Shown here piece by piece: positions 53,335-61,803 of a stretch of 64,000 bases of DNA. Position numbers and translations under genes: made by a program. Each line of letters opens with the position of its first letter. The stretch's first letter is position 1. The notes below the pieces were generated by a model. That model searched no databases. It was given only the letters and a program-made list of their open reading frames with translations, and was not told where the DNA came from. The stretch is from an uncultured archaeon (GTDB taxonomy: Archaea > Asgardarchaeota > Thorarchaeia > Thorarchaeales > Thorarchaeaceae): positions 255,226 to 319,225 of the forward strand of contig CAYYQL010000001.1 of assembly GCA_964473825.1 (NCBI GenBank), in the 5' to 3' direction.

Positions 53335-54210
53335 ATGGCTAGATGTTCGTTATGCGGAAAAGAAGACCTCTGTTTCAATTGTCCGTACTGCAATGGAGTC
53401 TATTGCTCAGAACACAGACTGCCTGAGAGCCATGGATGTCCTGGCCTTCAGTTAGCAAAACAAAGAGCCAGAGAGAAGCTGTCAGATGCATACTCTGAAA
53501 CCTATCAGAAGCCTAGAAGATCGCGTTTTAGCCGCGGTTCGAAGGCTACGACCAAGAGAAGGCGTTTCTCGCAGAGAGAGCTACGTGATCTTGGAATTGC
53601 CGTCCTTCTCGTCATACTCGTCGGGATTTCTATAATGGGACGAACCCCCATAGGCATCCTCAACGGAATACTGACAATCTATGCACTTGCAGGGACCGCC
53701 TACTGGTGGTTTCCAGTCGTAGTCATTCTAATTTTTCTTGCATCTTTCATGCTTCATGAGTTGGCGCACAAGTTCGTTGCACAACACTATGGAATGTGGA
53801 GCGAATTCAGAATGTCACCACAAGGTTACTATCTTTCAACGTTGGCCATCATCTTCGCATTTCCTATCTTCGGAACAGGCGTGGTCTACACGAGCGGCTC
53901 AGCAAGTCGCGATGAGAATGCCAAGTCAAATCTGGCGGGGCCTCTCTCGAACTTTGTGCTAGCATTTGCTGCTGCCGCAGCGGTTGTTCTTTCTGCATTA
54001 TTGCTGGGAGGAGTAGCGTATCCATTCGGATTCGTTGCCCAGTACACAATAAGTCTCAATGCGATGCTTGGGCTCTTCAACATGATTCCTATCCAGCCGT
54101 TTGACGGGGCGACAGTTCTACAATGGAACAAAGCAGTCTGGGCGACGGTAGCTGCTTCACTACTTGTACTACTAGTATTTGGATATGTCCTGCTCCCACT
54201 CATCTTGTAA
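53335..54210 (+). CDS. AN1 Zn finger + site-2 (M50) membrane metalloprotease
   Basis: CSLCG..CPYC...CSEHRLPESHGC; HELAH; NMIPIQPFDG. Confidence 0.88.
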   Translation: MARCSLCGKEDLCFNCPYCNGVYCSEHRLPESHGCPGLQLAKQRAREKLSDAYSETYQKPRRSRFSRGSKATTKRRRFSQRELRDLGIAVLLVILVGISIMGRTPIGILNGILTIYALAGTAYWWFPVVVILIFLASFMLHELAHKFVAQHYGMWSEFRMSPQGYYLSTLAIIFAFPIFGTGVVYTSGSASRDENAKSNLAGPLSNFVLAFAAAAAVVLSALLLGGVAYPFGFVAQYTISLNAMLGLFNMIPIQPFDGATVLQWNKAVWATVAASLLVLLVFGYVLLPLIL

Positions 54211-54288: not shown

Positions 54289-55815
54289 TTGCAGTCGGTC
54301 CAGTCACACTCAAGCGACATAGTGGAATTGTCGGTTTCATCATGGTTCTACAGAAACAGAACAATTGCGGGTTTCGATAATCCTGCCCGCTCTCTGTATG
54401 TCTCTGTGAGAGAGCTGGTCGAGAATAGCTTGGACTCATGCGAAGAGAACGGATACTTGCCTTCTATCCGAATCAGACTAGTTCTAGCATCTCATGAGGA
54501 CTCTCTTGCCGGGTTTGACGAGGGGCCACAGACCTTCGAACTTGAGGTCAGTGACAATGGTGGAGGGATGGAACGTGAGGCGATACCTTTGCTTCTTGGG
54601 AAAATGCTCACCGGGACGAAATTCTCCCATAAACAGAGCCGCGGAACATTTGGACTTGGAGGTAGTCTAGCCCTTCTCTATGGACAAGTTACAACACAAG
54701 AGCCAATCCAGGTCATAACCTCACTCTCGGGGAGTGAAGTCCAGAATGAGACCACCATCAGACTTGACATAGACGAGAATCGGCCCACCATTTTAAGCGA
54801 GGCACAGTCACCTAAGCCACCAGACATGCATGGAACGACTGTGAAGTTCAGCCTCCAAGGAGACTGGCTACGGAGTAAGCGCAAGATCATTGAATACATA
54901 AACCAGACAAGCATCATTGTTCCGTACGCCTCAATCGTGTTTCAGAACCCAGATGGTGACACTCTTTCATTTCCAAGAATCATCAACGAGATGCCAGAAC
55001 CACCCCAAGAGATGCAGCCCCATCCCAAGGGCATTGATGTTGAGATGCTGAAGAGGCTGCTAGCTGAAACCAACTCACGCACGCTGGGCACATTTATGAT
55101 AAGCTCATTTCAAAGGGTCGGAGAAGCGACTGCACGGGCCTTTCTTGAGAGTGCAGACTTGGAGTATACAAGAGCACCAGATTCGCTTGATGCCCGCGAG
55201 ATTACAGCAATGATGAGAGCAATGGAGAGATTCGATGATTTCATATCTCCATCGTCAGACTGCCTCTCACCCCTCGGCGAAGATGTATTGCGTGCAGGTC
55301 TCAAGCGGCTGAAACCAGAGTTCAGCATCACCGCACAGAGAGATCCAAGTGCTTACGAGGGACATCCCTTCATAGTTGAAGTCGGAATCGGTTACGGAGG
55401 CGAAGTTGAAGGGGGCATGTACCGATTTGCCAACAAAATCCCGTTGCTATACGATGAAGGCTCCGATGTTTCTACTAAAGTGGTTAAGGAACTGAACTTG
55501 AAGCACTATGGTCTGAGGCAAGACGATCCTATAGCATTTCTCACACACATATGCTCCACGAAGATTCCTTACAAGACAGTCGGAAAGGAATACATAGGTG
55601 ACGTTGATGTCATCCGCCGTGAGATTGAACTTGGGTTCAAGGAATGCCTGAGGAAACTCGGGAGAAGAGTCCGGCGGAAGAATAGGATAAGGCGAGCAAG
55701 GAAACGAGAGAGCCGATTGCAGACATATTACGAGTTCATCTCGGATGTCTTGAGTCGAAGCTTGGAGAGAGAGATCAGAACAGACCATCTGTTTTCACAG
55801 GGGGGAAACCCTTGA
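54289..55815 (+). CDS. top6B: DNA topoisomerase VI subunit B
   Basis: RELVENSLD, DNGGG, QSRGTFGLG, H2TH, YRFANKIPL, STKIPYKTVGKE. Confidence 0.93.
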   Translation: MQSVQSHSSDIVELSVSSWFYRNRTIAGFDNPARSLYVSVRELVENSLDSCEENGYLPSIRIRLVLASHEDSLAGFDEGPQTFELEVSDNGGGMEREAIPLLLGKMLTGTKFSHKQSRGTFGLGGSLALLYGQVTTQEPIQVITSLSGSEVQNETTIRLDIDENRPTILSEAQSPKPPDMHGTTVKFSLQGDWLRSKRKIIEYINQTSIIVPYASIVFQNPDGDTLSFPRIINEMPEPPQEMQPHPKGIDVEMLKRLLAETNSRTLGTFMISSFQRVGEATARAFLESADLEYTRAPDSLDAREITAMMRAMERFDDFISPSSDCLSPLGEDVLRAGLKRLKPEFSITAQRDPSAYEGHPFIVEVGIGYGGEVEGGMYRFANKIPLLYDEGSDVSTKVVKELNLKHYGLRQDDPIAFLTHICSTKIPYKTVGKEYIGDVDVIRREIELGFKECLRKLGRRVRRKNRIRRARKRESRLQTYYEFISDVLSRSLEREIRTDHLFSQGGNP

Positions 55816-56960
55816 CCGTTGCGAGTCGAGATTCCTACAATGCTCATGAAGTCATGGACATGATAGGAGACATACTGAATAGATTAGGCGAAACCCTAGA
55901 AGACGGGCTGTTCCCGGAAATAGGCTATTTCGCGTCATCCAAACGAAACATCAGATATGAGAAAGGCAAGGGTTACACACCTCTGGATGAAAAGCCGTCA
56001 TTCCTTGACGGAAGAAAGGCTGAGAGTGCCAAGACGATTGCAGGCCTGGTCTATGGGCTTACGCAATTCAAAGAACACCTAGAACACGGCATGTCGATGT
56101 CCCTCCGAGACTTCTACTATGTTCATAAGGTGAAGGCAGTCCAAGAAGCACTGAACATCAAAGACCAGAATGAAACCAACAGGATGATCAACCTCTGTGA
56201 GAGAATCCTCAGAATTTCTGGCGAATCGATTCCCCGGGAGGAGTTCGGCGTAGTCAGCTCACCCAAGGGCACATTCTATGGAGATGTTACGCTGTCTGAC
56301 CTGTCAGGAAAGAGGCTGAACTGCAGTGCTGCGGGGGAATATGGCTGGTTCATCTCATCAAGACCCCATGAAGTGGTCATTCATGACATAAACATCGATG
56401 CCGCTGTCCTCGTCGAGAAGGAGGCAATGGCAAGAAACCTCATCGAACTGGGGATTGCCGAAGAACTCGATGTGGGAATAGGAGCCCTCTTCGGCCAACC
56501 GGGACGAAACATGAGAGCCTGGATTCATAAGCTTGCAGACAATGGCATTCCAATTCTGGTTCTAGTCGACATGTCGCCCTGGTCGCTCAGAATCTTCAGT
56601 ACAATCAAGAGCAACTCCATTGAACTCGCGAATATTGTCGGATTAGCAACCCCTGATGCCAAGCTTCTCGGCCTGACAACTGACGACTTCTGGTCCAAAG
56701 ATGGGATGCTGAGTGAGATAGAGCATTCGCTTGAACAGATGAGCAACTCTGACAAGAGATGTGCCAGACAGAATAAGAATATCCCGGCTATTGAACAGGA
56801 TTCCGTCTTGAAGAGAGAGAACGAGATTCTGTTGAAGAAGGGAAAGAAAGGAGAGCTTGAGGCCTTCAAGGCCTTCGGCCTTCCACTTACGGAGCTAAGA
56901 GATCTGTACAAATCATACATTACAAACAAAGCACGCATGTTTGATGTGAAACTGATATAG
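55812..56960 (+). CDS. top6A: DNA topoisomerase VI subunit A / Spo11-like (divergent)
   Basis: LRDFYY catalytic Tyr, VEKEA Toprim Glu, GQPGR, DMSPW, KGELEA; overlaps top6B by 4 bp. Confidence 0.85.
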   Translation: MTVASRDSYNAHEVMDMIGDILNRLGETLEDGLFPEIGYFASSKRNIRYEKGKGYTPLDEKPSFLDGRKAESAKTIAGLVYGLTQFKEHLEHGMSMSLRDFYYVHKVKAVQEALNIKDQNETNRMINLCERILRISGESIPREEFGVVSSPKGTFYGDVTLSDLSGKRLNCSAAGEYGWFISSRPHEVVIHDINIDAAVLVEKEAMARNLIELGIAEELDVGIGALFGQPGRNMRAWIHKLADNGIPILVLVDMSPWSLRIFSTIKSNSIELANIVGLATPDAKLLGLTTDDFWSKDGMLSEIEHSLEQMSNSDKRCARQNKNIPAIEQDSVLKRENEILLKKGKKGELEAFKAFGLPLTELRDLYKSYITNKARMFDVKLI

Positions 56961-56996
56961 GGGAGTGTTCCCAATAGGGAAAGGAGGAGATCGTCC

Positions 56997-57668
56997 ATGT
57001 CAACCCAGAAAGAACAAGTTGCAGAACAGCTAGAGACACTGAAGTCAACCTTTGATGAGTTGATCACGAAATCTGAAGAACTAGAAGAAGAGGCAGAAGA
57101 GCTTCGCAAGACCCGCAGAGAAACAGAAGAAAAAGCATGGGCTGCTGAAGAGAAGCTGGAGCAGTTGACGAAAGAAGCTGAGGAAACTGAAGCGGAACTC
57201 GGTAAAGCAAGAGATAGAATCGAGGAACTGGAAACACAGTTCAAAGAAACAAAAGATCGGGCAGACCAACTTGAATCGTCAATGGAGGAGGCCGTTGGAG
57301 ATCTCAGGAAGGAGAGAGATGAACTCAAACATGAAATGGACGAGATAAACCAACAGCTGAATCGTGTGTCGGAATTGTACCGTGAAACCGCAGCCGAGAA
57401 AGAGAAGCTTGAGGAGAAGGTTGATGTTTCAGACCTGCTTGCAATATACATCACACTGATTGAGACAGTCTTTGCTGGCAAGCCACATGCCCGGGTATTG
57501 TACATGCTTCACGACACGGGAGCTGCCATCACCAGAAAACATATTGAGGCAAGCACCGGCATCATGCCCACACACGTCATAAAGGCCATACACGACCTCA
57601 GGAATGCGGATCTCGTTTCGTATGACGAACAGACTCAAGAGGTCGAGCTCATTCGAAACATCCTGTAG
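56997..57668 (+). CDS. Long coiled-coil protein with a C-terminal winged helix
   Basis: About 140 aa of uninterrupted heptads, then RVLYMLH..ITRKHIEASTGI...AIHDL..ADLVSYD. Confidence 0.75.
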   Translation: MSTQKEQVAEQLETLKSTFDELITKSEELEEEAEELRKTRRETEEKAWAAEEKLEQLTKEAEETEAELGKARDRIEELETQFKETKDRADQLESSMEEAVGDLRKERDELKHEMDEINQQLNRVSELYRETAAEKEKLEEKVDVSDLLAIYITLIETVFAGKPHARVLYMLHDTGAAITRKHIEASTGIMPTHVIKAIHDLRNADLVSYDEQTQEVELIRNIL

Positions 57669-57712
57669 AAATAGGTCACTAATCACCAGAAGCCAACACA
57701 GAGAGGAGTATT

Positions 57713-58717
57713 TTGGGCTACAAAGTGAAATACCCACAACAACTTAGAAAGCATATGCAGAAGTACAATCTGCATCAGAAATTTCGGTCAATCACGGATC
57801 TATTCGGAAACGATGCACAGGACGTTATAGACTGGGCGGTCGACGAGGCAGAGAGACGAATCGGAGAAGGTGAGCTCCCCGAGAACTACAGCCTGGGAAA
57901 GGCAATCTATGAACTCGTTGGAACAGAAGCTGCAATACGTTTGGTGCAAGACAACCATGCTCGGGGACGGTTGACGACTAAGAGCGAGGTGAAGAGGAAG
58001 ACCGGAAGAAACCCAGAGATGCCCGTGCTCTTTCGTCAGGCAGGTCTTCGACACCCGCAGGAGGCCAGGAATCTACGACATAATATGTTTCATTGCTCCT
58101 TCGAAGCCTTGGTCAACAAGCTCTTCTCGAATGTGGATACAGATGTGCCGAGCACAGGTAATGGTTTAACGCCTGACCTCATAATAACTTCTAGGAACCC
58201 CGGATGGCAAATCTCGGTGGAGTACAAAGGATACCGTTCACTGACATTGCTTAGCGAGTCCGAGATTCTCAAGGGCATGAGATACCAAGCGGAATACGGA
58301 ACGGCCTGGCTTGTCACGAGTACTTCAAAGACCGTAAAGGACCTCTATGACGGAGTGATTACAGCTGAAGAACTGATAGAGAGAGGGATTCCCCGACTCA
58401 GGAGGATTGGAAGGAGAAGGGCGTACACCAATGAACAGAAGGAGAATCGCGGTATCTCCAGAAAGGGTATCTCCCATCTAGAGAAGCATAAGGGAGAGAA
58501 GCTGAGTTGTAGACTCCTGTCAGCAGATGAAATAGTTGATTCATGCCAGAACGGAAGGCCGAAAGAGGGGCTGGCAATAACCAATGGCATGGAATATGTC
58601 GACCTTCTTCGGAAGAATGGTCTCCACCAACACGCTGACAATGTTCTTCAGATAATGAAGAGTCCAGCAGACCTTCTACACAGTGATACCATAACTTCTG
58701 TCAGGCTCATCGAATAG
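57713..58717 (+). CDS. PD-(D/E)xK nuclease-fold protein
   Basis: FE.LV..LF, TPDLII, ISVEYKG, Y..AWLVT. Confidence 0.65.
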   Translation: MGYKVKYPQQLRKHMQKYNLHQKFRSITDLFGNDAQDVIDWAVDEAERRIGEGELPENYSLGKAIYELVGTEAAIRLVQDNHARGRLTTKSEVKRKTGRNPEMPVLFRQAGLRHPQEARNLRHNMFHCSFEALVNKLFSNVDTDVPSTGNGLTPDLIITSRNPGWQISVEYKGYRSLTLLSESEILKGMRYQAEYGTAWLVTSTSKTVKDLYDGVITAEELIERGIPRLRRIGRRRAYTNEQKENRGISRKGISHLEKHKGEKLSCRLLSADEIVDSCQNGRPKEGLAITNGMEYVDLLRKNGLHQHADNVLQIMKSPADLLHSDTITSVRLIE

Positions 58718-58837: not shown

Positions 58838-59230
58838 TTGCACAGACAGAGCGCAGTTGATGTTACTGAACTGATAAAGGAACTACTGAAAGATCTCTCC
58901 ATCAACTCGCCAATACTCGGTTCCGCCATATTCTCCGTTGAAGGTCTTCCCTTTGTCAGCTACTTCCACACGGGAATGGAAGATGTTGGCATCGCAGCCA
59001 TGGTAGCAAGCGTCTACTCTGCCGGCGAGCAGACGGTCCGGGAGCTTCGGCAGGGTAATCTGGAGTCAATCATAATCCAGGGAACGCTAGGAACAACTCT
59101 GGTAGTTTCTGTCACAGAAGACTACTTGCTTACAGTGACTGCTCCAGAGAATGCAACTCTTGGTCTGATATTCAATGATGCGAAACGTGCAGCCAGAGAG
59201 GCAGCCAGACTTCTTCAAGAACTCATATGA
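58838..59230 (+). CDS. Roadblock/LC7 domain protein
   Basis: SAIFSVEGLP, IAAMVAS, GNLESIIIQGTLG, LGLIF. Confidence 0.9.
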   Translation: MHRQSAVDVTELIKELLKDLSINSPILGSAIFSVEGLPFVSYFHTGMEDVGIAAMVASVYSAGEQTVRELRQGNLESIIIQGTLGTTLVVSVTEDYLLTVTAPENATLGLIFNDAKRAAREAARLLQELI

Positions 59231-59240
59231 GTCAAGCATA

Positions 59241-60062
59241 ATGGACAAGGACTATCCCTATGAACTGCATCCATGCTGGGCCAGCGAGAGAGAGGGCCTT
59301 TGGGAACGAATACACGTGCCGGTAGCAGCAGGATGTAATGTGCAATGCGGTTTCTGTGAGAACTCGCGTGATGGTTGTAACGCCTTACAGCCAGCTTATT
59401 CAAACAGAGTCATCTCTGTAGCTGAGGCGGTAGAGATAATCACACGCGAGTTGGGAAGTCGGTCGAATCTAGGGATTGTGGCCGTTTCAGGTCCAGGCGA
59501 ACCACTTCTGAATGGAAGAGCACTCGAGGTCTTCAAGCAGATTCGGAGAACACGAAAAGATATCGAGTTCTGCCTGAGCACGAATGGCACCCTCCTTGCT
59601 GAATGCAGCAAGAAGCTTGCCAAACTTGGAACAAGAACCATCACTGTTTCTATGAGTACATCTCTCCCAGAAACGGCGGCAAAGATCTATGACTGGGCAG
59701 TACTGGATGGAAAACGCCTTGAGGGCCTCAAGATGGCGAGAGCAATAATAGAAAGACAGCTTCAAGGCATTGATGCAGCAGTTGATGAGGGCATGCTAAT
59801 CAAAGTGAATACCGTTCTCATCCCGGGTGTCAATGACAGAGATGTCTGTACACTTGCCGAATCTCTCTCTGACCACGATGTCTCATTGCAGAACATAATC
59901 CCCCTGATCCCTCTTGGACGCATGAAGACACGCAGAGCACCGACTCATGCCGAAGTGGAAGCGGCTCGTCTTCAGGCCTCAGACTGGCTCCCTCAGTTCT
60001 CTAACTGCAAGCTATGCAGAAGCGACGTTGTGGGGATTCCCGGCTGCGATACCCCAATCTAG
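59241..60062 (+). CDS. NifB-like standalone radical SAM protein
   Basis: HPC, RIHVPVA..CNVQCGFC, SGPGEPL, STNG, KVNTVLIPGVND, CKLCRSDVVG. Confidence 0.8.
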   Translation: MDKDYPYELHPCWASEREGLWERIHVPVAAGCNVQCGFCENSRDGCNALQPAYSNRVISVAEAVEIITRELGSRSNLGIVAVSGPGEPLLNGRALEVFKQIRRTRKDIEFCLSTNGTLLAECSKKLAKLGTRTITVSMSTSLPETAAKIYDWAVLDGKRLEGLKMARAIIERQLQGIDAAVDEGMLIKVNTVLIPGVNDRDVCTLAESLSDHDVSLQNIIPLIPLGRMKTRRAPTHAEVEAARLQASDWLPQFSNCKLCRSDVVGIPGCDTPI

Positions 60063-60901
60063 AGAGTGCCTTTCAGACACAGACAACCCTCTTCCACAAG
60101 TTTGTTTATCAAGAACCAAATCGCGTTGCGGTCAAAACCGAAAGGTGCGTCTTCAAGCTTGGCAATAACAGACTCGATGGAATCCTTGCCATCCATAGCC
60201 TCGAGAAGATCATCGACTGGGGCGCCATATTGCTGACGCAGACGTATCATGTTAGAACCTGAACAATCTCTTTGTTCCAAGATGTCGCTGGGTCTGAGCC
60301 GCCGCCGGAAATCAATCCATTTGTATTTCTTCAATAGAGAGATGAGGGCGATAACTTCTTCGTCAGGTAGGTCAATTAGCCCAAGAATCTCAGCGATGTT
60401 TCTCTTTCCGTTGATGTAGTTCTCAAGAGTCTCAAGCTTTCTGTCAACAATACCGACACGGTAAGGGAAGTCGACGCCGTTCCTTCTCCTAAAGGGTACC
60501 AACTCCATGTCAGGGATGGAGAAGGGGAATTCCATAATGACACTCAATGCAAAGTCCCGGAACTTCCGAACGTCGCCCTCAAACCTACGAAGACTCTCCC
60601 CGTGTTCAACTTCTACGCGTTCAAGGATTGCCCGAAGCTTCTTCCTGTATGGCTCCTCGTTCGGGACTGGGTCGACGACAAGCAGAACCAACACAGTCTC
60701 GCCGACTTCAATCAGGATATCGTAGGCAGCCTTGCGAATGGTTCTAATCGGCGTCTTGGCAAAAATAATCACGGCAGTAACAAAACCGGCGATGAGATCG
60801 GGGTCAACAGTGAGCTCTGCATATGGAATGTTAAGAATGGATTCGCCGCCTTCCAGTCGGATCAGCGAGATATATCGGACATTGGAAAGGTCGTAGCCCA
60901 T
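60059..60901 (-). CDS. Longin + tandem winged-helix protein (NPRL2-like), paralog 2
   Basis: DPDLIAGFVTAV longin helix, FEGDVRKF, YINGKRNIAEI, MDGKDSIESV. Confidence 0.7.
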   Translation of the reverse strand: MGYDLSNVRYISLIRLEGGESILNIPYAELTVDPDLIAGFVTAVIIFAKTPIRTIRKAAYDILIEVGETVLVLLVVDPVPNEEPYRKKLRAILERVEVEHGESLRRFEGDVRKFRDFALSVIMEFPFSIPDMELVPFRRRNGVDFPYRVGIVDRKLETLENYINGKRNIAEILGLIDLPDEEVIALISLLKKYKWIDFRRRLRPSDILEQRDCSGSNMIRLRQQYGAPVDDLLEAMDGKDSIESVIAKLEDAPFGFDRNAIWFLINKLVEEGCLCLKGTL

Positions 60902-60960
60902 TGTATCAAATCCCCTCCTCAGATGCTTCTCCTACATCCAGACTCCTTCTCATGATTGAC

Positions 60961-61803
60961 CTACTCCTCATAGCCCAACACCCCTGCCTCAATCAAATTC
61001 CGTGCTACAGTTCGTACAACCTCAAGACTATATGGAACCTCTTCGACGACTTGAATCAGAGACCTTGACCCATCACAGAGTTCAACCAGCTGGACAAGCT
61101 CCTCACCATACACACCTAAGAGGAACTGAGGAGGATCGCTCAATTTCCTCAAGACCGTATCAGCCTCAAGGGGTCGGCTCAAAGAAATCCAGTTGTACTT
61201 AATCAGCATCGAGAATATAGCCATAATCTCATCTTCTGAGAGGCCAGATGCATCTTCTATCTCTAGGATACTCCTCTTGCCGTTCACATAACTGAGAATC
61301 ATCTGCAGTTTCTCGTCTGTTTCTCCGACACTCCAAGGAATTCTCTGCTGTCGGTCGGGAACGGCTTCAGATTTGTGTATAACTCGTGGCACCAGACTAG
61401 AGTCAAATCTCTGGTATGGGAAGAACCCAAGAATGTCGAGAGCAAACTCTCGAAACGGACGAATGTCGCCATCCCATCGTTCGAGTTGTTTCGAATATCT
61501 CCGTTCGAACTCTGCTATCACCTCTTTGAGAGTATCACGATAAGGAGTATCGTCGTCAACCAAATCAACGATGAGCAGTCCTACAACATGATTGCCCTCT
61601 TCTATGACAACGACATACCCCTCCTTTTGGAATGTCTTGAGTTGACGGTTCTCGAAAATCACCACAGCCAAGACAAAGCTTGCCACCAAGTCCGGGTCCA
61701 CTCGCATCTCTCTGTATGGTATCCCCAATATTGGCTCACCACCCTCTCTTCGAACGAGAGAGATATATCGGACCTTTTCTTCGTCGATGGCGATTGAGTT
61801 CAT
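60961..61803 (-). CDS. Longin + tandem winged-helix protein (NPRL2-like), paralog 1
   Basis: DPDLVASFVLAV, WDGDIRPF, ILSYVNGKRSILEI, CDGSRSLIQV. Confidence 0.7.
   Translation of the reverse strand: MNSIAIDEEKVRYISLVRREGGEPILGIPYREMRVDPDLVASFVLAVVIFENRQLKTFQKEGYVVVIEEGNHVVGLLIVDLVDDDTPYRDTLKEVIAEFERRYSKQLERWDGDIRPFREFALDILGFFPYQRFDSSLVPRVIHKSEAVPDRQQRIPWSVGETDEKLQMILSYVNGKRSILEIEDASGLSEDEIMAIFSMLIKYNWISLSRPLEADTVLRKLSDPPQFLLGVYGEELVQLVELCDGSRSLIQVVEEVPYSLEVVRTVARNLIEAGVLGYEE

What the first reader, a model, noticed from the sequence alone, without database searches (positions are those of the whole stretch)
54289..58717. Topoisomerase VI operon extended by a coiled-coil-wHTH protein and a PD-(D/E)xK nuclease
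top6B, top6A, the coiled-coil-wHTH gene and the nuclease gene are tightly spaced (-4, 36 and 44 bp). Eukaryotic TopoVI/Spo11 complexes need accessory factors, whereas archaeal TopoVI is regarded as a stand-alone A2B2 enzyme. A coiled-coil DNA binder plus a nuclease could form an undescribed module for chromosome segregation, break processing or defence.
Basis: inference. Interest (0 to 1): 0.7.

Follow-up and report, generated by a model that had tools for sequence, protein, structure and literature searches.

The report
Third TopoVI beside separable wHTH-nuclease pair
In this Thorarchaeota genome a third, already published copy of topoisomerase VI sits directly upstream of a coiled-coil DNA-binding gene and a nuclease gene, but relatives keep that pair, with its own promoter-like element, after losing the topoisomerase, so the pair is probably not a dedicated topoisomerase accessory.

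Summary
Four co-oriented genes lie at 54289-58717 with spacings of -4, 36 and 44 nt: top6B, top6A, a coiled-coil/winged-helix protein and a PD-(D/E)xK-fold protein.

- The genome is Thorarchaeial and carries three TopoVI pairs. The window holds the third, divergent pair (Top6A Toprim DxD reads DMS). A third Thorarchaeial copy is already published (PMC12680538).
- The coiled-coil/wHTH protein belongs to a single-copy family found in 240 of 301 Asgard genomes. It has no conserved neighbours outside Thorarchaeia.
- The nuclease is specific to Thorarchaeia. It lies directly downstream of the wHTH gene in 68 of 68 genomes.
- The TopoVI-3 pair is missing from this site in 13-14 of 62 informative genomes. 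At least three separate presence/absence changes are needed, and two genomes keep a deletion scar. The wHTH and nuclease genes stay intact in all of them.
- A 14-nt BRE/TATA-like element (56946-56959) overlaps the top6A stop codon. It persists in 12 of 13 genomes without top6A-3.

I read this as two separable units placed side by side. First readers noted the same arrangement in at least seven other genomes. A physical link to TopoVI-3 is not excluded. Transcription could not be tested.

The parts
53335..54210 (+). AN1 zinc-finger / M50 peptidase gene. It is the upstream neighbour, and in genomes without top6BA-3 it directly abuts the wHTH gene.
   Evidence: Pfam PF02163 and PF01428; synteny.
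54289..55815 (+). top6B-3, the B subunit of the third TopoVI paralogue pair. GHKL ATPase and transducer motifs are intact.
   Evidence: PF09239 at 7.6e-54; NF003218 at 543 bits against cut-off 274. 393 bits to S. shibatae Top6B (2zbk_B), with ELVENSLD, DNGGG, GTFGLG and KIPYKTVGKE aligned.
55812..56960 (+). top6A-3, a divergent A subunit. The catalytic RDFYY and the Toprim Glu (VEKE) are kept, but the DxD motif reads DMS.
   Evidence: PF21180 at 84 bits, against 172-185 bits for the two other copies in this genome. Alignment to 2q2e_A and 2zbk_A. DMS is present in all 12 orthologues aligned.
56946..56959 (+). Conserved element GTGAAACTGATATA, BRE/TATA-like, 51 nt before the wHTH start codon and overlapping the top6A-3 stop codon. 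I infer it to be the promoter of the wHTH-nuclease unit.
   Evidence: Present with at most 2 mismatches in 12 of 13 genomes lacking top6A-3, and with at most 3 mismatches in 44 of 47 that have it. It is the only exact copy in the window. Chance gives 0.6 hits with at most 2 mismatches per 64 kb on both strands.
56997..57668 (+). Coiled-coil/winged-HTH protein (P0001), a member of a single-copy pan-Asgard family with no Pfam model.
   Evidence: AF2 pLDDT 85: helix 2-141, then the H-H-(short strand)-H-H-strand-strand topology of a wHTH. Foldseek matches to TFE-alpha, MarR, IclR and Z-alpha winged helices. Homologues in 240 of 301 Asgard genomes.
57713..58717 (+). PD-(D/E)xK-fold, Mrr-like nuclease candidate (P0002), specific to Thorarchaeia. 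It starts at a TTG preceded by GAGAGGAG.
   Evidence: AF2 pLDDT 89. VIA Z 7.3 to AF1548 (1y88) and Z 5.4-6.5 to LlaBIII, Can2, AspBHI, PaqCI, BspD6I and McrC. Foldseek top hit PspGI. ESM Atlas nearest clusters carry Mrr_cat. Invariant E117, PD155, E170-x-K172. Distribution.
58838..59230 (+). Roadblock/LC7 gene, the conserved downstream neighbour of the nuclease. It is listed as context, not as a shown part of the module.
   Evidence: PF03259 at 3e-10. Downstream of the nuclease in 67 of 68 Thorarchaeota loci.

Best explanation
The region holds two evolutionarily separable units that lie side by side.

Unit 1 is top6B-3/top6A-3, the third TopoVI paralogue pair of Thorarchaeaceae. The B subunit looks ATPase-competent. 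The A subunit keeps the catalytic tyrosine and the Toprim glutamate but has DxS in place of DxD. This pair is dispensable and has been lost repeatedly.

Unit 2 is an older two-gene unit. Its first gene encodes a pan-Asgard protein with a long, presumably dimerising coiled coil and a C-terminal winged HTH. Its second gene encodes a Thorarchaeia-specific Mrr-like PD-(D/E)xK nuclease. A BRE/TATA-like element sits about 50 nt upstream of the wHTH gene, and the top6A-3 reading frame ends inside that element.

Shown: the gene identities, folds and conserved catalytic residues; the distribution of each gene; the loss of unit 1 with retention of unit 2; and the conservation of the upstream element.

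Inferred: that the element is a promoter. Also inferred is the working model, in which the coiled-coil/wHTH protein binds or bridges DNA as a dimer and the co-transcribed nuclease cuts DNA in a housekeeping role such as repair, recombination or chromosome processing, independently of TopoVI-3. Read-through from top6A-3 may add to expression where that gene is present.
For: - Three top6B and three top6A loci occur in the genome and across the family. A third Thorarchaeial copy is published (PMC12680538).
- Top6A-3 motifs were checked, Top6B-3 motifs.
- The wHTH-nuclease-roadblock block is present in all 20 relatives examined. top6BA-3 is absent from that site in 7 of them.
- In the census of 68 named Thorarchaeota loci, wHTH and nuclease are adjacent in 68 of 68. 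top6A-3 is upstream in 47 of 62 informative loci, and M50 is directly upstream in 13-14.
- Deletion scars of top6A-3 (residues about 306-382) remain in G019 and G044.
- The tree needs at least 3 presence/absence changes on well-supported branches and 6 on the best tree.
- Genomes without copy 3 still hold the two other top6A types.
- The wHTH family occurs in 240 of 301 Asgard genomes, single-copy, with no shared neighbours outside Thorarchaeia.
- The nuclease occurs in 66 of 76 genomes of the own family (f1) and 1 of 1 of the sister family (f2). Among 223 other Asgard genomes there is one marginal hit. Only 12 clusters match among 1.84 billion representatives.
- The upstream element is kept in 12 of 13 genomes lacking top6A-3, against a chance rate of about 0.002 per upstream region.
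Against: - In about three quarters of Thorarchaeaceae species the four genes are tightly packed (36 nt between top6A-3 and the wHTH gene). Co-transcription and functional coupling there are therefore not excluded.
- All genomes with top6BA-3 have it at this one site. This fits a single inherited insertion but equally fits selection for linkage.
- No transcript data were obtained, and promoter function is inferred from sequence only.
- Nuclease activity, DNA binding and dimerisation are all untested.
- Structural Z-scores (at most 7.3) fall in the range where the tool warns that matches can reflect only a common arrangement.
- The Thorarchaeaceae-specific RREAEEKAW patch in the coiled coil has no assigned partner.
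Confidence: 0.6

Rival explanations
1. The four proteins form one machine: TopoVI-3, with its weakened Toprim site, makes or holds DNA breaks, the coiled-coil/wHTH dimer targets or bridges DNA, and the nuclease processes the ends. This would be an archaeal analogue of Spo11 with its accessory factors and nucleases.
For: Tight spacing of -4, 36 and 44 nt. The four-gene order is kept in 47 of 62 informative Thorarchaeota genomes. Top6A-3 is strongly conserved (69-78% identity outside the own genus, 93% within it) yet carries DxS in all orthologues. top6BA-3 is never seen at another site.
Against: The wHTH and nuclease genes stay intact and equally conserved after at least 3 separate top6BA-3 presence/absence changes, read as losses, and in the sister family that lacks copy 3. 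The wHTH family is pan-Asgard while copy 3 is confined to one family. A promoter-like element precedes the wHTH gene regardless of top6A-3. Pfam gives no hit to any Spo11 or TopoVI accessory family. The published phylogeny places the extra copies away from eukaryotic Spo11.
Confidence: 0.12
2. The wHTH protein is simply a transcription regulator, possibly autoregulating its own unit. The nuclease is an unrelated enzyme that happens to be co-transcribed with it.
For: The winged helix matches MarR, IclR, SmtB and TFE-type domains. The family is single-copy and pan-Asgard with variable neighbours.
Against: A variable-length coiled coil of 100-190 residues is unusual for a simple repressor. The nuclease is adjacent in 68 of 68 Thorarchaeota genomes.
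Confidence: 0.2
3. The wHTH-nuclease pair is an anti-virus or restriction-like defence module.
For: The nuclease core most resembles restriction and defence nucleases: PspGI, LlaBIII, AspBHI, Can2, Cap4 and McrC. The ESM Atlas neighbours carry Mrr_cat.
Against: It is single-copy, near-universal in Thorarchaeia, fixed in synteny with housekeeping genes, and 54-64% identical across genera of the family. That is vertical, core-gene behaviour. PADLOC returned only coiled-coil noise and no model for the nuclease. No relatives were found in viral contigs.
Confidence: 0.05

Closest known systems
Archaeal topoisomerase VI (Top6A/Top6B; PDB 2zbk, 2q2e) and the extra Asgard copies described in PMC12680538
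   Same: Both subunits are present with overlapping genes. The GHKL and transducer motifs, the catalytic Tyr and the Toprim Glu are conserved. A third Thorarchaeial copy has already been reported.
   Different: Top6A-3 has DxS instead of DxD in all orthologues. It scores far below the two other copies (84 against 172-185 bits on PF21180) and below every NCBIfam equivalog cut-off. It is dispensable in several genera.
Mrr-like / restriction-endonuclease-like PD-(D/E)xK nucleases (AF1548, PDB 1y88; nuclease domain of LlaBIII, 4xqk; Pfam Mrr_cat PF04471)
   Same: The core fold over residues 119-301 and the E...PD...ExK catalytic signature.
   Different: No Pfam, NCBIfam or PDB sequence hit. It has an extra N-terminal helical domain (1-118), a helical hairpin inserted in the core (about 215-263) and a C-terminal alpha/beta extension. 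Its distribution is that of a core gene confined to Thorarchaeia, not of a mobile restriction gene.
Archaeal and bacterial winged-HTH DNA binders (MarR/IclR/SmtB families; TFE-alpha winged helix, PDB 6pln)
   Same: The C-terminal ~80 residues adopt the winged-HTH topology.
   Different: No family reaches its Pfam cut-off. The domain follows a 100-190-residue coiled coil of variable length. The conserved region also includes about 40 residues before the wHTH.
Eukaryotic Spo11/TopoVI accessory factors (Rec114-Mei4-Mer2; plant RHL1/BIN4)
   Same: Only the general idea: a coiled-coil protein and DNA-end processing near a Top6A-like enzyme.
   Different: No sequence or fold similarity was detected, and the gene linkage is facultative. 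The published phylogeny places copy 3 with other archaea, not with Spo11.

Membership tests
Topoisomerase VI subunit B | GHKL ATPase plus transducer domains above curated cut-offs | tested here: met
   PF09239 at 182 bits (cut-off 24); NF003218 at 543 bits (cut-off 274); TIGR01052 at 441 bits (cut-off 381).
Topoisomerase VI subunit B | ATP-binding motifs and the switch lysine | tested here: met
   ELVENSLD, DNGGG, GTFGLG and KIPYKTVGKE align with S. shibatae Top6B, 2zbk_B.
Topoisomerase VI subunit A / Spo11 | 5Y-CAP (TP6A_N) and Toprim domains | tested here: met
   PF04406 at 27.0 bits (cut-off 26) and PF21180 at 84.2 bits (cut-off 24.1). All NCBIfam equivalog cut-offs are missed; the best is 262 bits against 424.
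Topoisomerase VI subunit A / Spo11 | Catalytic tyrosine and Toprim glutamate | tested here: met
   SLRDFYY aligns with LRELYY (2q2e_A) and IRDLYY (2zbk_A). VEKEAM aligns with the Toprim Glu.
Topoisomerase VI subunit A / Spo11 | Toprim DxD metal-binding motif | tested here: not met
   The motif reads D-M-S in the window and in 11 orthologues. The two other copies in the same genome have DGD and DSD.
PD-(D/E)xK nuclease superfamily | alpha-beta-beta-beta-alpha-beta core fold | tested here: met
   AF2 pLDDT 89. VIA Z 7.3 (rmsd 2.9, 110 residues aligned) to 1y88, and Z 5.4-6.5 to more than ten other PD-(D/E)xK nucleases. Foldseek top hit PspGI with prob 0.97. Caveat: Z below 8 is the range the tool flags as possibly a common arrangement.
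PD-(D/E)xK nuclease superfamily | Catalytic (E)...PD...(D/E)xK signature conserved | tested here: met
   E117, P154, D155, E170 and K172 are invariant in 20 sequences. The equivalent acidic and lysine residues are also kept in the distant P0127 and P0128.
Mrr_cat (PF04471) sequence family | Match to the Pfam model | tested here: not met
   No Pfam hit at E <= 0.01. The only link is an ESM Atlas feature similarity of 0.88-0.89 to Mrr_cat-bearing clusters.
Winged helix-turn-helix DNA-binding domain | H-H-(short strand)-H-H-strand-strand topology and fold match | tested here: met
   DSSP elements H144-159, H162-174, H180-187, H191-203, E207-210, E215-218. Foldseek prob 1.00 to TFE-alpha, MarR, IclR and Z-alpha. 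Pfam hits are all below cut-off.
Spo11/TopoVI accessory factors (Rec114, Mei4, Mer2, RHL1, BIN4) | Sequence or fold similarity to any of them | tested here: not met
   Pfam scans of both proteins and of 19 family members list none of these families. None appears among the listed PDB fold or profile matches.
Known anti-phage defence systems (PADLOC) | Match to a defence-system protein model | tested here: not met
   Nuclease: only AbiEii at E = 0.038 over 24 residues. wHTH protein: only coiled-coil matches to JetC, LmuB and similar.
Single operon top6B-top6A-wHTH-nuclease | One transcript spanning all four genes | not testable with these tools
Sequence gives only short gaps and a promoter-like element before the third gene.

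The most novel reading that the evidence does not exclude
In the Thorarchaeaceae that keep it, TopoVI-3 (Toprim DxS) has been recruited to the older wHTH-nuclease unit. The four proteins would then act together as a programmed DNA-break and end-processing machine, a prokaryotic parallel to Spo11 with its coiled-coil partners and nucleases. Lineages that lost TopoVI-3 would run the wHTH-nuclease part alone or with another TopoVI copy.
Probability: 0.08. Interest if true: 0.85.

Novelty: new member of a known kind. Interest (0 to 1): 0.35.

Why it matters
The check turns an attractive idea, archaeal TopoVI with Spo11-like accessory factors, into a sharper and more modest picture. The extra TopoVI copy is already known. 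Its linkage to the downstream genes looks like one inherited, repeatedly reversed insertion next to an older gene pair.

Three things remain of value:
1. An uncharacterised single-copy coiled-coil/winged-helix family found in most Asgard genomes. [quoted passage not shown]
2. A Thorarchaeia-specific core nuclease permanently coupled to that protein.
3. A TopoVI A subunit with a conserved DxS Toprim site, whose activity is worth assaying.

The natural loss lineages give a ready-made comparative test of whether the units depend on each other.

Tried and rejected
- **Complex prediction** of the nuclease with the wHTH protein returned no verdict (score 0.00, controls not run). It is not used as evidence either way.
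- **Searches for P0127/P0128.** The genome-contig scan returned only Thorarchaeota loci. The viral-contig scan and both metagenome-contig scans returned nothing. Cluster look-up shows singletons on short unnamed contigs. Their origin stays unknown.
- **Sigma-70 promoter and terminator scan** gave counts near shuffle expectation. It is not suited to archaea and was ignored.
- **Family searches for the wHTH protein.** The profile search of the PDB and the Pfam scan of 19 members returned only coiled-coil noise, plus a sub-threshold TFIIE_alpha signal in 4 of 19 members. No family assignment was made.
- **ESCRT/CdvA-like reading** of the coiled-coil/wHTH protein was considered after reading PMC10936438. 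It was dropped because there are no ESCRT neighbours and no similarity.
- **Contamination** as the source of the extra TopoVI copies was rejected. All three types recur across 40 genomes of the family, and the contigs have similar GC.
- **Supplementary text of PMC12680538** is not held.


Full report
**Observation.** Four + strand ORFs occupy 54289-55815, 55812-56960, 56997-57668 and 57713-58717.
- The first ORF is a good Top6B: PF09239 at 7.6e-54, and NF003218 at 543 bits against a cut-off of 274. It scores 393 bits against S. shibatae Top6B, with the ATP-binding motifs and the switch lysine aligned.
- The second is a divergent Top6A. It scores 84 bits on PF21180 and 27 bits on PF04406, but falls below every NCBIfam equivalog cut-off.
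- The third and fourth have no Pfam or NCBIfam family beyond coiled-coil noise.

**Organism and TopoVI copies.** Database names of the closest homologues place the window in Thorarchaeota.
- The assembly is 95.7% complete with 4.4% contamination. It holds three top6B and three top6A loci.
- A canonical pair of 505 + 350 aa lies beside RIO kinase and KH-domain genes on contig C33.
- A long pair lies on C38: a 706-aa B subunit and a 746-aa A subunit with N-terminal helix-hairpin-helix repeats.
- The third pair is the one in the window.
- All three types recur across 40 genomes of the family, so contamination is not the explanation.
- This expansion is published. PMC12680538 states that various Asgard clades encode a second Top6A copy and Thorarchaeia a third. 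It places the extra copies with other archaea, outside the clade that is sister to eukaryotic Top6A/Spo11.

**State of copy 3.**
- Top6A-3 keeps SLRDFYY (the catalytic tyrosine region) and VEKEAM (the Toprim glutamate).
- Its DxD motif reads DMS in the window and in all 11 orthologues aligned. The two other copies in the same genome read DGD and DSD.
- Top6A-3 is 69-78% identical to its orthologues in other genera of the family. It is therefore under constraint, not decaying, where it is present.

**The fourth gene.**
- With a 20-sequence alignment, AlphaFold2 gives mean pLDDT 89.
- Residues 119-301 match PD-(D/E)xK nucleases. VIA gives Z 7.3 to AF1548 (1y88), and Z 5.4-6.5 to the nuclease domains of LlaBIII, Can2, Cdn1, AspBHI, PaqCI, BspD6I, McrC and others.
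- The Foldseek top hit is PspGI. The nearest ESM Atlas clusters carry Mrr_cat.
- E117, P154-D155, E170 and K172 are invariant.
- These Z-scores lie in the range the tool warns may reflect only a common arrangement. The assignment rests on the convergence of several searches plus the invariant motif.
- The family is narrow. It is found in 66 of 76 genomes of the own family and 1 of 1 of the sister family. Among 223 other Asgard genomes there is one marginal hit. Only 12 clusters match among 1.84 billion representatives.

**The third gene.**
- AlphaFold2 (pLDDT 85) gives one helix over residues 2-141 followed by a winged HTH. The winged HTH matches TFE-alpha, MarR, IclR and Z-alpha domains.
- The conserved C-terminal 119 residues have single-copy homologues in 240 of 301 Asgard genomes, and in 82 of 90 high-quality ones.
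- In 16 non-Thorarchaeial loci no neighbouring gene is shared across orders.
- The coiled coil varies in length and sequence.
- An RREAEEKAW patch in the coiled coil is conserved only within Thorarchaeaceae, and it is kept whether or not top6BA-3 is present.

**Linkage test.** In 20 relatives the block wHTH-nuclease-roadblock-radical SAM-two longin-like genes is always present. top6BA-3 lies between the M50 peptidase gene and the wHTH gene in most of them, but is missing from that spot in seven, including the sister family.

A census of 68 named Thorarchaeota loci gives:

| Feature | Count |
|---|---|
| wHTH and nuclease adjacent | 68 of 68 |
| Roadblock downstream | 67 of 68 |
| top6A-3 upstream of the wHTH gene | 47 of 62 informative |
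| M50 directly upstream, no top6BA-3 | 13-14 of 62 informative |

- Genomes without copy 3 still hold the two other TopoVI types.
- Two genomes of one genus keep a frameshifted remnant of the last ~75 codons of top6A-3 at the site. This shows loss by deletion.
- On a tree of the conserved neighbours, the presence pattern needs at least three changes on well-supported branches and six on the best tree.
- The wHTH and nuclease genes in the loss lineages are intact. Their nucleases are 54-61% identical to the window's, against 55-64% in genera that keep copy 3.

**Promoter-like element.**
- The 14-mer GTGAAACTGATATA (56946-56959) overlaps the top6A-3 stop codon and lies 51 nt before the wHTH start codon, followed by a GGAGGAG ribosome-binding site.
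- It occurs with at most two mismatches in 12 of 13 genomes that lack top6A-3, where it is non-coding, and with at most three mismatches in 44 of 47 that have it.
- Chance gives about 0.6 such matches per 64 kb on both strands, or roughly 0.002 per upstream region.
- Its variants swap A and T in the TATA-like half and keep GTGAAA. This fits a BRE plus TATA box, but that is an inference: no transcript data could be obtained.
- The sister family has a similar GTGAA plus AT-rich box at the same place. This suggests that the element predates the arrival of top6BA-3.

**Interpretation.** The simplest account is a single insertion of top6BA-3 immediately upstream of an existing wHTH-nuclease unit near the base of Thorarchaeaceae, followed by repeated loss.
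- That makes the four-gene order one inherited event, not repeated evidence of functional coupling.
- The downstream pair does not depend on TopoVI-3.
- My working model for the pair is a dimeric coiled-coil DNA binder with a co-transcribed Mrr-like nuclease in a housekeeping DNA transaction. The model is inferred and untested.
- A defence role is unlikely given the single-copy, syntenic, vertical pattern and the lack of PADLOC or viral matches.
- A physical or regulatory link to TopoVI-3 in the lineages that retain it is not excluded. I give it about one chance in eight.

**Earlier notes.** First readers recorded the same four-gene arrangement and the DMS motif in at least seven other genomes of this scan. 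None of those notes carried a follow-up.

Noticed in passing
G000 contig C38 (locus L007: 938-3058 and 3062-5302): The second TopoVI pair has a 706-aa B subunit and a 746-aa A subunit. The first ~380 residues of the A subunit are helix-hairpin-helix repeats (PF14520 at 1e-45). Long forms of 650-950 aa recur across the family.
   Followed up: partly
G005 contigs C12 and C47 (locus L023): In one relative, top6A-3 is split. Residues 96-382 lie upstream of the wHTH gene, while residues 7-102 are on another contig, and neither top6B-3 nor M50 is found in the 5 kb upstream. This could be a rearrangement, an insertion or a misassembly.
   Followed up: no
window 58838-60062: A roadblock/LC7 gene is followed, with a possible 56-nt overlap, by a NifB-like radical SAM gene. 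The pair is conserved downstream of the nuclease throughout Thorarchaeaceae. The sister family keeps only the roadblock gene.
   Followed up: partly
window 60059-61803 (- strand): Two tandem 280-aa paralogues, 30-40% identical to each other, one with an HTH_47 hit, are conserved as a pair in all relatives examined.
   Followed up: no
window 57105-57131 (residues 37-45 of P0001): An RREAEEKAW patch inside the otherwise variable coiled coil is nearly invariant in Thorarchaeaceae. It is absent in the sister family and in other Asgard homologues. It may be a partner-binding site, but no partner was identified.
   Followed up: partly
P0127 and P0128 (database proteins): Two ~300-aa proteins are distant relatives of the nuclease, 27-29% identical to Thorarchaeial members in the alignment, with the catalytic residues kept. 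They sit on short unnamed metagenome contigs and could not be placed in any genome or virus collection.
   Followed up: yes
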